Part shown: positions 36,601-39,600 of the stretch, in pieces
Numbering within the stretch: position 1 is the first letter of the stretch
Layout: every line of letters starts with the position of its first letter
Source: Podarcis cretensis
Lineage: Eukaryota
Assembly: GCA_951804945.1 (NCBI GenBank)
Contig: OX638158.1
Location: forward strand, 35,216,001-35,280,000
Reading direction: 5' to 3'
Length of the DNA stretch: 64,000 nucleotides
Translations under genes and position numbers: made by a program
The notes under the pieces: generated by a model
The model's input: only the letters and a program-made list of their open reading frames with translations
What the model was told of the DNA's origin: nothing
The model's database searches: none

Positions 36601-39600
36601 CAGTTAGACTATTTTGCAAACTGTTACTCTCCTATACATCCAAATGGGCTTCATTGTGAAAAATGCGGGGGGAAATAGCCCAATGCTCAGAGTGCTCTTA
36701 ACTTGGTGTGGTCCTTAAAGCCCCCCCTGTTTTTCCATACCAGTGAAAGCTATGTGTAAGGATGGGAAATGTGTGGCCCTCCAGATATTGGACTCTCAAA
36801 TCCTATCAGCCCTAGAGTGGTCAGGGATGAAGAGAGAGTTGTAGACCAACATCTGGAGAGCCACAGATTATTCATCCCTCATGTACAGAAGTGTTCTGTG
36901 TGCATATTATGACAATTGGAGATGATACTTCACAGGGATTACTACCCATGCATATTATTTCCAACATATTCTGTATCCAAAACGAGCTTTGCAATGTGTA
37001 GAATCAGTCTGTGAGTAAAATGTTATTTAAAAGTTGTATGTAAATAGAACAAGAATGTGTTGCTGAATTCAGCCTAAGATTTCTTCAGGCATTCAGGTGA
37101 CAACAATGGCAGCAGGGGTGAGGCTAATGCTTTCATCCTTATTGCCTCTCTTCACGTATTTACTTTAATACCTGAAGAGACTACAGTTGTGCTTATAGGT
37201 TAACAAGTGAGAGGTGAAGCCTGTTACTTTATATGCAAGGGTTATCAGGCTACTGATGGTAGCCTGATAACTTTCAGTAAAGTTGGTACAGTTACAAAGG
37301 AAGCTGTTGCAAGCCTAGTGATTCACAGTTAGTTCTGGCAGTTTATATACAGTGGTGCCTCGCAAGACGAAATTAATCCGTTCCGTGAGGCTCTTCGTAT
37401 AGCGGTTTTTTCGTCTTGCGAAGCAAGCTCATTGACAGCTTAGCGGATTAGCGCTATTAGCGGTTTAGCGGCTTTTAGCGGATCAGCTGTTAAGCGGCTT
37501 ATCAGCGGATCAGCTGATAAGTGGCTTAGCGGCTTAGGAAAAGGGGGGGAAAACCCACAGGAACTCGCAAGACATTTCGTCTTGCGAAGCAAGCCCATAG
37601 GGAAATTCGTTTTGCGAAGCGCCTCCAAAATGGAAAACCCTTTCGTCTAGCGGGTTTTCCGTCTTGCGAGGCGTTCGTCTTGTGGGGCACCACTGTACTG
37701 GACAGGAGAATAAAAAAGGTCAAGATTTTGATAGCTCAATTAGAGAACATTATATTGGTGTGTGATTGAGTTTATTCAGTCTTACTCTTCCACAGGACTT
37801 AGATGGGACTAGGAGAAGTGCTGTAACTTAGAATTACCTTACTTTTCCTGTGATAAGGCTGTGTCCCTCCATCATTCTCTCCTGCCCCCCCCCCAAATAT
37901 ATGGGACTGCCAACATGGTGCTATCCAAATTTTTTAGAGTACAGTTGCCATCATCCCTGACCATTGGCCGTGATGGCTGGGGCTGATAGGAGTTGTAGTT
38001 CAAACATCTGGAGGGCACTACATTGGCTACCCACATTGACTATACACTTAGAATGGACTCGGGGACTAAGATATCACCACTGTGTGGCCAAATGAGGCAA
38101 CTGGGGAAAAGAGTGAGAAAGCATGTACAGGAGAACGGCAGTTGTGGAAGTAGAAAAAAATAAGTGGAAAAAAAATCTCAAAATAACCCATTAAGAACTT
38201 GGCATACTCAGTAGCCACAGAATGCAGAGTTCAGAATGCAGTTGTTCAGAAATAGTACTCTGTATACAGCCAGAACATTGGCTTCCAAGATTGGCTTTTC
38301 CTATGCCCATAATATTGGATATAGATTTTGTTAATGCTCTCAGCCAGTTGTTAGAGAGAATGATGCTACTTCTAAAAACGTTTTTAAGATAATAATTTTG
38401 TTTTTATTCCTTTAGTTCCGAGTCCAAACCTTTACATTCAGCTAAATGCTCTGCAATTCACACTGGATGAGAGGAGTGTTCTTTGGCTTAACCAGTTTGT
38501 GTTAGACTTGAAACAAAGTCTCAGCCAATTCATGGCCATATACAAGTTAAATGACAATTCAAAGCCGGAAGAACATGTTGACGTTCGAGTTGATGGGTTA
38601 ATGATAAAGGTAATGTTGTCAAAGATACAGCACAACATTGCTCAGTGTTGAATTCCTGCCATGAATGATGCATGGGAGCGGCCACTTTAGAGAGAAAATA
38701 TGTATTGTCCAATAAAGGGCAACTTGTGAAATGCAAACCACACATGATATAAAAGGGGTAAGTTGTTGTTGGAGATTGAGGCTTCACTTACTTTAAAAGT
38801 TAATTTCTAGCTCAGTTGGCTGAAAAAAATTAATTGGAGCAGGTTTTCAGAAGCACTTCCCAGTGTAACATTAGATACCACACAACTTTCCTAACTCTGT
38901 AATCATATAAGGGAAAGAGAGTATGGGGTAATACAGGTAGGTAGCCATGTTGGTCTGCTGTAGTTGAAACGAAATAAAAAAATTCCTTCCAGTAGCACCT
39001 TAGAGACCAACTAAGTTTGTTATTGGTATGAGCTTTCTTGTGCATGCACACTTCTTCAGATACACTGAAACAGAAGTCACCAGACCCTTATATATAGTGA
39101 GAAGGTGGGGAGGGGTATTACCCTTCTGAGTAATAGTCTAGTAAACAAAGTTAAAGAGGAATAAACTCTGTGGAGTAGACAATTTAAACCTGAAAAGTAT
39201 TTTAGTAACTTACAGTGTCCTAATTTAGCACATACGCAAGTGGAAAACGGCCCAGAATGGAATATATAATCCATTTAAATAATGGAATATATAACCTGCC
39301 AACTATAAGCAAAACCACTTGACATCTGATAAAGAAGATTCTAGTCCACAAAAGCCTTAACCACAATAAATCTGTTCATTTTTAAGGTGTCAGAAAACAC
39401 CCTTTTGTATTTTTATTTGCTATGCATATTTATCCTCCTATTTAGTTTTTATTAAGATAGCTTTTTATACTTTGTGGAATTATACCACTAAGGACATCAG
39501 CCTTTGTGCTACCCACATACAGCAATCCCACAATTTATGTGGGGGTTATGTTTCAGGGATTGTGCGTAAAGCCAAAATTGTGTTTGGTCAAAACCCCATG

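What the first reader, a model, noticed from the sequence alone, without database searches (positions are those of the whole stretch)
39026..39063. Minimal hammerhead ribozyme in a Penelope-like terminus, antisense within BLTP3B intron 13
Seen (minus strand): GUAU CUGAAGA A GUGUGC AU GCACA A GAAA GC UC AUAC. Stem I GUAU/AUAC, conserved CUGANGA and GAAA boxes, palindromic stem II, near-absent stem III with palindromic AGCU loop and UC cleavage site (between 39030 and 39029). Established: Penelope-like element pLTRs carry such minimal type I hammerheads that cleave as dimers. This copy has A instead of C before GAAA, breaking the stem II closing pair, so it may be impaired.
Basis: partly seen in the sequence, partly recalled or inferred. 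Interest (0 to 1): 0.7.

Follow-up and report, generated by a model that had tools for sequence, protein, structure and literature searches.

The report
Broken hammerhead in lizard Penelope stub
This is one of thousands of leftover end pieces of a known kind of jumping gene in a lizard genome; it carries a known tiny self-cutting RNA motif, but this copy has a one-letter change, no partner copy nearby and faces against its host gene, so it is likely inert and ordinary.

Summary
The motif is at 39063-39026 (-), in intron 13 of BLTP3B, against the gene's direction. It lies in a 208-nt, 5'-truncated end repeat (pLTR) of a Neptune-type Penelope-like retrotransposon; longer copies carry RT and GIY-YIG, one with a hammerhead in both pLTRs. 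The 38-mer with an intact G10.1-C11.1 pair occurs 6,322 times in the genome; this copy's A version 14 times, so the A is decay. A published turtle minimal hammerhead has the same core and two compensatory changes. Corrections: helix II is better drawn as 5 pairs plus a 4-nt loop; Rfam misses even intact copies; published dimer cleavage is weak. No second copy lies in the window and the motif is not on the host pre-mRNA strand, so this copy is likely inert. Family-level side result: copy 5' ends pile up 0-4 nt before the hammerhead at a TATA/Inr-spaced site (24 of 91 arms), none at the cut site, so the hammerhead likely opens the element's RNA and that RNA is likely copied uncut. The scan noted both points before on other DNA. 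Known kind, low interest.

The parts
39026..39063 (-). Minimal type I hammerhead motif (helix I 4 bp, core, extra A between 9 and 10.1, helix II, GAAA, self-complementary AGCU in place of helix III, C17)
39038..39038 (-). C11.1 replaced by A; breaks G10.1-C11.1; rare decay change at a CpG site
   Evidence: exact 38-mers in genome: C 6,322, T 340, A 14
39029..39030 (-). Predicted cleavage site, 3' of C17 (triplet CUC); cleavage not tested
   Evidence: position by hammerhead numbering; layout as in PMC4209133 supplement
38932..39121 (-). Forward arm: 190-nt 3' end (pLTR plus tail) of a Neptune-type Penelope-like element, 92.7-97.5% identical to 29 closest copies
38932..38965 (-). Optional 'tail': family 3' ends cluster about 98 and about 135 nt from the hammerhead start; this copy ends at 132
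   Evidence: tail described in PMC8557442, PMC3846280, PMC11167929
39120..39135 (+). Short inverted piece (16 nt) of the element sequence just upstream of the forward arm; overlaps it by 2 nt
   Evidence: (loose ends at 39121)
38928..38933 (+). Left copy of a 6-nt direct repeat (GTAATA); inferred target-site duplication, empty site not seen
39130..39135 (+). Right copy of the 6-nt direct repeat; also matches the element, so it may have primed the inverted piece (inferred)
39089..39096 (-). TATA-like box, 31-33 nt before the hammerhead
   Evidence: promoter activity untested
39064..39068 (-). Initiator-like TCAGT, A at 39066; family 5' ends pile up here; predicted RNA start
38610..40054 (+). 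BLTP3B intron 13 (counting coding exons), GT-AG; host of the insertion

Best explanation
The 38-nt motif is the minimal type I hammerhead carried in the end repeat of a Neptune-type Penelope-like retrotransposon, and this copy is a truncated, mutated stub that is likely inert. Shown: the stub is the last 190 nt of an element whose long copies encode RT plus GIY-YIG, with a hammerhead in each pLTR of a tandem copy; the family keeps G10.1-C11.1 and this copy has lost it; no second copy lies within the window; the motif is on the strand opposite to BLTP3B. Inferred: the stub was made by target-primed reverse transcription from the downstream of two start sites, with a short second priming event from the other target strand giving the inverted piece and the 6-nt duplication; in the family the pLTR promoter starts the RNA about 3 nt before the hammerhead; two hammerheads would have to pair through AGCU (tandem pLTR-ORF-pLTR RNA, or two RNAs, probably helped by the element's protein) to cut; most RNA that was copied into the genome was uncut.
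For: Family and copy number. ORF link: GIY-YIG ends about 180 nt before the hammerhead in L014, L023, L024 (Pfam PF01541 above cut-off); RVT_1 + GIY-YIG in 2 of 2 long ORFs scanned; L053 has direct pLTRs 98.5% alike with hammerheads 2,546 nt apart. Neptune: C-x4-C-xx-C linker and CxxC between GIY and YIG (criteria from PMC8557442 passages). Turtle motif in PMC4209133 supplement: same core, double changes in helix I and helix II. No partner: 1 match in the window with up to 3 mismatches; only one element piece in 64 kb. Predicted loss of stability from the A: helices I+II -6.0 to -2.8, double hammerhead -11.1 to -4.5 kcal/mol. 5' ends: 24 of 91 arms at -4..0, 0 of 91 at the cut site +32..36; genome-wide 73 copies lack C/U17 before the 3' product against 52 at a control site and 8,214 intact (binomial p 0.07).
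Against: No cleavage assay and no RNA data for this locus. Rfam finds no hammerhead in this copy or in five loci with intact copies, and the motif does not out-fold shuffles. In two-molecule folding the lowest-energy state of the intact motif is a duplex through the palindromic helix II (-30.6), far below the double hammerhead (-11.1), so dimer cleavage in this family is not a given. The size of the activity loss from a G10.1-A11.1 mismatch rests on conservation (PMC4209133) and recalled knowledge; PMC544870 passages say motifs without helix II can sometimes still cleave. The insertion is present in 4 of 4 runs from four organism labels, which does not exclude selection. The 5'-end sample was chosen for an exact intact 38-mer, which forces primary arms to start at or before 0.
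Confidence: 0.88

Rival explanations
1. This copy is a working regulatory unit: its TATA/Inr drives an antisense RNA into BLTP3B exon 13 and upstream, starting with a weakened hammerhead, and it tunes the host gene.
For: TATA-like box and Inr-like site are retained with family spacing; the insertion is shared by four organism labels.
Against: The CCAAT boxes that the family has 79-87 nt upstream are cut off here; the copy differs from its closest relatives by 2.5-7% like any ageing copy; no RNA evidence was obtained; thousands of equal or better copies exist.
Confidence: 0.05
2. The motif is in the family but is no longer a catalyst: it is kept as a protein-binding or dimerising leader at the RNA's 5' end, and the hammerhead look is inherited.
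For: No excess of copy ends at the cut site; palindromic helix II favours a non-catalytic duplex in folding; in PMC11167929 hammerhead mutants did not affect insertion in vitro and no RNA-seq reads ended at the cut site.
Against: Core boxes, NUH site and helices are kept between turtle and lizard with compensatory changes; the common variant at position 17 is C to U, which keeps a cleavable triplet (9-23% of depth); the anole Poseidon motif does cleave with protein (PMC11167929).
Confidence: 0.12
3. The stub belongs to a non-autonomous retrozyme (tandem hammerhead repeats making circular RNA) rather than being a truncated copy of the autonomous element.
For: Animal retrozymes derive from PLE pLTRs (bioRxiv 10.64898/2026.07.22.740005, abstract and passages).
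Against: 0 same-strand pairs within 5 kb among the first 100 exact copies against 16 inverted pairs; 1 of 60 sampled loci has a same-strand pair, 34 of 60 an inverted arm; copies run straight into the GIY-YIG ORF with scattered 5' ends.
Confidence: 0.03
4. Chance match to a short, loose motif.
For: Loose core pattern is at chance level in the window; no Rfam hit; fold z 0.74.
Against: Fixed place in the pLTR of an RT + GIY-YIG element, thousands of copies, turtle counterpart with compensatory changes.
Confidence: 0.01

Closest known systems
Minimal hammerheads (min-HHR) of metazoan Penelope-like elements, Cervera and De la Pena 2014, PMC4209133 (read: parts 1-2 of 4 of the main text, part 2 of 3 of supplementary file 2; file 1 not searchable)
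   Same: CUGANGA-H, G10.1-C11.1, GAAA, palindromic 15.2/16.2 with no helix III, NUH, 4-bp helix I, U-rich 5' flank, place in pLTRs, mostly single dispersed copies or inverted pairs. The listed Chrysemys picta motif has the same core, the same G-C-U after GAAA and similar flanks.
   Different: Lizard helix II loop is 4 nt and makes the whole helix a 14-nt palindrome (turtle loop 7 nt); triplet CUC (turtle CUU); the family is very uniform (6,322 identical 38-mers); this copy has A11.1.
Neptune clade of endonuclease-positive PLEs (PMC8557442, passages seen)
   Same: RT with DKG motif, C-x4-C-xx-C linker, C-terminal GIY-YIG with CxxC, 5'-truncation, inverted 5' pieces, 30-40-nt optional tail.
   Different: Clade assigned by linker motif only; Nematis shares a linker motif and no tree was built.
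PAc (Poseidon) element of Anolis carolinensis, Frangieh et al. 2024, PMC11167929 (read: parts 1-2 of 4)
   Same: Two reverse-transcription start sites that define a tail; hammerhead upstream of them; uncut RNA as template; ATT at the target.
   Different: Other clade; in PAc the start codon lies in helix II and the start sites 111-118 nt into the ORF, here the first in-frame ATGs lie 102 and 141 nt after the hammerhead start, at or after the two end clusters.
pLTR promoter of Adineta vaga Pen2a (PMC3846280, passages seen)
   Same: TATATATA box followed by an Inr-like site in the pLTR; inverted pLTR, tail and short target duplication.
   Different: Here copy 5' ends pile up at the Inr-like site, a genomic sign that it is the RNA start; D. 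virilis Penelope is reported to use a TATA-less internal promoter (PMC2377424, passages seen).

Membership tests
Minimal type I hammerhead (PLE min-HHR) | CUGANGA and GAAA boxes, U16.1-H17 | tested here: met
   69 aligned copies keep them
Minimal type I hammerhead (PLE min-HHR) | Unpaired base between 9 and 10.1; helix I of 4-5 bp; palindromic 15.2/16.2 | tested here: met
   A at 39052; GUAU/AUAC; AGCU
Minimal type I hammerhead (PLE min-HHR) | G10.1-C11.1 pair | tested here: not met
   Not met in this copy (A at 39038); met in the family: C 6,322, T 340, A 14 exact copies
Minimal type I hammerhead (PLE min-HHR) | Compensatory changes in helices | tested here: met
   One double change each in helix I and II against the published turtle motif, read by eye; no turtle-type helix II subfamily in this genome (0 matches)
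Minimal type I hammerhead (PLE min-HHR) | Self-cleavage as dimer or with protein | not testable with these tools
   Folding only; no genomic footprint of cleavage
Rfam hammerhead families | Covariance-model hit | tested here: not met
   No hit at E <= 10 in window 37000-41000 or in 5 loci with intact copies
Endonuclease-positive Penelope-like element | Single ORF with RT and C-terminal GIY-YIG | tested here: met
   Longer copies; absent from the window copy by truncation
Endonuclease-positive Penelope-like element | pLTRs, inverted 5' pieces, optional 30-40-nt tail | tested here: met
   L053 direct pLTRs; 34 of 60 loci with inverted arm; two 3'-end clusters about 37 nt apart
Neptune clade | CX2-5CxxC linker before the endonuclease | tested here: met
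   C-x4-C-xx-C in P0001 and all long ORFs printed
Neptune clade | RT phylogeny | not tested
   No reference RT set was fetched
Non-LTR retrozyme | Tandem units each with a hammerhead | tested here: not met

The most novel reading that the evidence does not exclude
In this lizard Neptune family the hammerhead is the first 40 letters of the element's capped RNA, so cutting would strip the cap rather than make the template; with both helix II and the AGCU site self-complementary, it could be a concentration-sensing switch that fires only when two element RNAs meet, while the genome records only the uncut RNAs. Thousands of TATA-Inr-hammerhead stubs, this intronic one included, could then act as scattered antisense promoters or decoy partners.
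Probability: 0.1. Interest if true: 0.55.

Novelty: new member of a known kind. Interest (0 to 1): 0.15.

Why it matters
This copy matters little. The family is a handy test case for an open question, what minimal hammerheads do for Penelope-like elements: it is young (inverted arms 99.9% alike over 1,523 nt in L055), has 6,322 identical motifs, ORFs open over 770-805 residues, and its copy ends mark a likely RNA start and two likely copying starts. It also shows that Rfam misses this whole class of motif.

Tried and rejected
Rfam scans gave nothing relevant; miRNA hits in L020 come from a head-to-head palindrome. Loose motif count and single-strand folding did not separate the motif from chance. 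The bacterial promoter/terminator scan found nothing and does not apply to an animal. A search for a turtle-type helix II subfamily gave 0 matches. Core against flank variation in 69 copies (4 of 690 against 270 of 7,630; L031 and L040 dropped as duplicates) is not used as evidence of selection: flanks include subfamily sites and a poly-T run, and the loci were picked by similarity; one of the two A11.1 copies there is the window, the other a locus also listed. Sequencing runs: no RNA holder listed; expression, strand and splicing at this locus stay open. Contigs break inside the repeat, so neither an empty site nor the base at 39038 in orthologous copies could be read (15 of 17 joints shown, none skips the element). 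A peak of copy ends at the cut site was looked for and not found; of 30 of the 73 candidate loci inspected by eye, 15 are point changes in an otherwise present motif, 6 are fold-back, insertion or deletion junctions and about 9 start at or near the site; the control set was not inspected. The palindromic helix II was considered as a special feature; a 4-nt loop is self-complementary 1 time in 16, and L052, with a 773-residue open frame, has a non-palindromic loop, so chance is enough. Paper searches for a measured effect of a 10.1-11.1 mismatch gave no such passage. No paper on this lizard family turned up (listing only); subscription journals, Repbase/Dfam and supplementary file 1 of PMC4209133 were not seen, and the supplements of the bioRxiv preprint were not opened, so the family may well be catalogued.

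Full report
Observation. The minus strand at 39063-39026 holds the 38 letters quoted. In hammerhead numbering: helix I 39063-39060 with 39029-39026, core 39059-39053, an extra A, helix II from 39051 to 39038, GAAA, then G-C-U-C with the cut 3' of C17 at 39030. The base at 11.1 (39038) is A, so G10.1 has no partner. The host is BLTP3B on the + strand (98% to the Podarcis muralis protein, so the genome is likely a lacertid lizard); tblastn maps 21 coding exons, and the motif lies in the 13th intron, 38610-40054. On its own the motif is not above chance: the loose core pattern gives 7 hits against 5.11 expected, folding z is 0.74, and Rfam has no hammerhead hit. Rfam also misses intact copies in 5 of 5 loci, so that test says nothing here.

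The element. A search of the genome with 181 nt gave 1,621 candidates, 40 scored, 30 kept as loci. Homology covers 39121-38932; the 29 other copies are 92.7-97.5% identical. Upstream, longer copies run into a GIY-YIG reading frame (Pfam PF01541). A protein search gave 2,914 candidates, 150 scored, with open frames up to 805 residues. Of 8 stretches fetched, all hold frames of 434-805 residues; the 2 scanned carry RVT_1 and GIY-YIG. L053 is pLTR-ORF-pLTR with a hammerhead in each repeat, 2,546 nt apart. The C-x4-C-xx-C linker fits Neptune (or Nematis) by the criteria in PMC8557442 (passages); no tree was made. The window holds only the one stub.

The changed base. Exact 38-mers in the genome: 6,322 with C11.1, 340 with T (C11.1-G12 is a CpG), 14 with A, this copy included. 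In contigs of four public runs C makes up 81-86% of depth at that place and T most of the rest. The A is therefore a rare change after insertion, not a subfamily trait. It costs 3.2 kcal/mol in the monomer helices and 6.6 in the double hammerhead. PMC4209133 lists G10.1-C11.1 as highly conserved; that its loss cuts activity strongly is recalled knowledge, not found as a passage.

Comparison with print. PMC4209133 (parts 1-2 of 4 read; supplement file 2 part 2) defines these minimal hammerheads in PLE end repeats, reports them in turtle and snakes, and lists a painted-turtle motif with the same core and similar flanks. Against it the lizard motif has one double change in helix I and one in helix II, both keeping the pair. 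That paper saw no monomer cleavage and low dimer/trimer cleavage for a Schistosoma motif. PMC11167929 (parts 1-2 of 4) found that the anole Poseidon hammerhead cleaves only with protein, is not needed for insertion in vitro, and that two internal start sites of reverse transcription define the tail.

How this copy arose (inferred). Family 3' ends fall in two clusters, about 98 and about 135 nt from the hammerhead start (49 at or before 108 and 31 at 131-140, of 80 arms; same in endonuclease-selected loci); this copy ends at 132 and so has the tail. At its 5' side a 16-nt inverted piece of the adjoining element sequence follows (39120-39135). GTAATA stands at both ends (38928-38933 and 39130-39135) and also matches the element at the point where the forward arm begins. 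This fits a staggered cut with a 6-nt duplication whose second strand annealed to the RNA and primed the short inverted piece. The empty site was not seen: contigs from 4 of 4 runs (four organism labels; X3 shares label and study with the possible source; the left overlap in X5 is only 13 nt) run from both flanks into the element, so the insertion is older than their split.

What the family shows about mechanism. The pLTR has CCAAT boxes at -87/-79, a C-rich box at -52, TATA at -33 and an Inr-like TCAGT at -5 relative to the hammerhead (box names recalled); a TATA plus Inr layout is described for rotifer PLEs (PMC3846280 passages). In 60 loci taken in order from the first matches, 24 of 91 arms not cut by the locus edge start at -4..0, against 14 in the 21 positions before, 14 in +1..31, and 0 at the cut site +32..36. 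The sample needs an exact motif, which biases primary arms; loose ends at 39063 in all four runs are an independent sign. Genome-wide, 73 copies have a purine in place of C/U17 against 52 at a control base two places up and 8,214 intact (p 0.07). So the RNA likely starts about 3 nt before helix I and was mostly copied uncut. Partners for a dimer in cis are rare: 16 inverted and 0 same-strand pairs within 5 kb among 100 copies, 1 same-strand pair in 60 loci. Against easy dimer cleavage, two intact motifs fold best as a duplex through the palindromic helix II; the model ignores tertiary contacts and protein. Earlier notes of this scan on other genomes reported the RNA-start pile-up, the uncut template and twin-primed stubs; two of them prompted the tests above, and nothing was on record for this place or sequence.

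Can this copy act? It is on the strand opposite to BLTP3B, so it is not in the host pre-mRNA; it has no partner in 64 kb; its closing pair is broken; its promoter has lost the CCAAT boxes. No RNA data were obtained. It is most likely inert.

Verdict. Observation confirmed, interpretation supported with minor corrections, a new member of a published kind. Interest 0.15; what value there is lies in the family as a test system.

Noticed in passing
window 37348-37697: About 350-nt element with 24-nt terminal inverted repeats (92% complementary), TA at both outer ends and internal copies of the end motif; looks like a Tc1/mariner-type miniature element (label recalled).
   Followed up: no
window 36768-36830 and 37951-38024: Two pieces of one short repeat in opposite orientation 1.1 kb apart in BLTP3B intron 12, probably SINE copies (label recalled).
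   Followed up: no
L004 and L020, junction with the forward arm: 2 of the 29 other loci also break and invert at the same GTAATA site as the window copy; may be a preferred priming site or an effect of the query's edge.
   Followed up: partly
L055:1325-5063: Inverted arms 99.93% identical over 1,523 nt with open frames: the family has been active recently.
   Followed up: no
window 39030 (family variation): C17 is read as U in 9-23% of contig depth in four runs, the turtle state; it keeps a cleavable triplet.
   Followed up: partly
L020:1622-1720: A head-to-head pLTR palindrome gives several sub-threshold microRNA hits in Rfam; such stubs could mislead miRNA annotation.
   Followed up: no
L123, L131, L138: Fold-back junctions that join the two strands of helix I (GTAT/ATAC) by microhomology, 3 of 30 loci inspected.
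   Followed up: no
window 2293-2763 (-) and 21765-22553 (-): Open frames that read like LINE reverse-transcriptase C-terminal fragments (label recalled, not searched).
   Followed up: no
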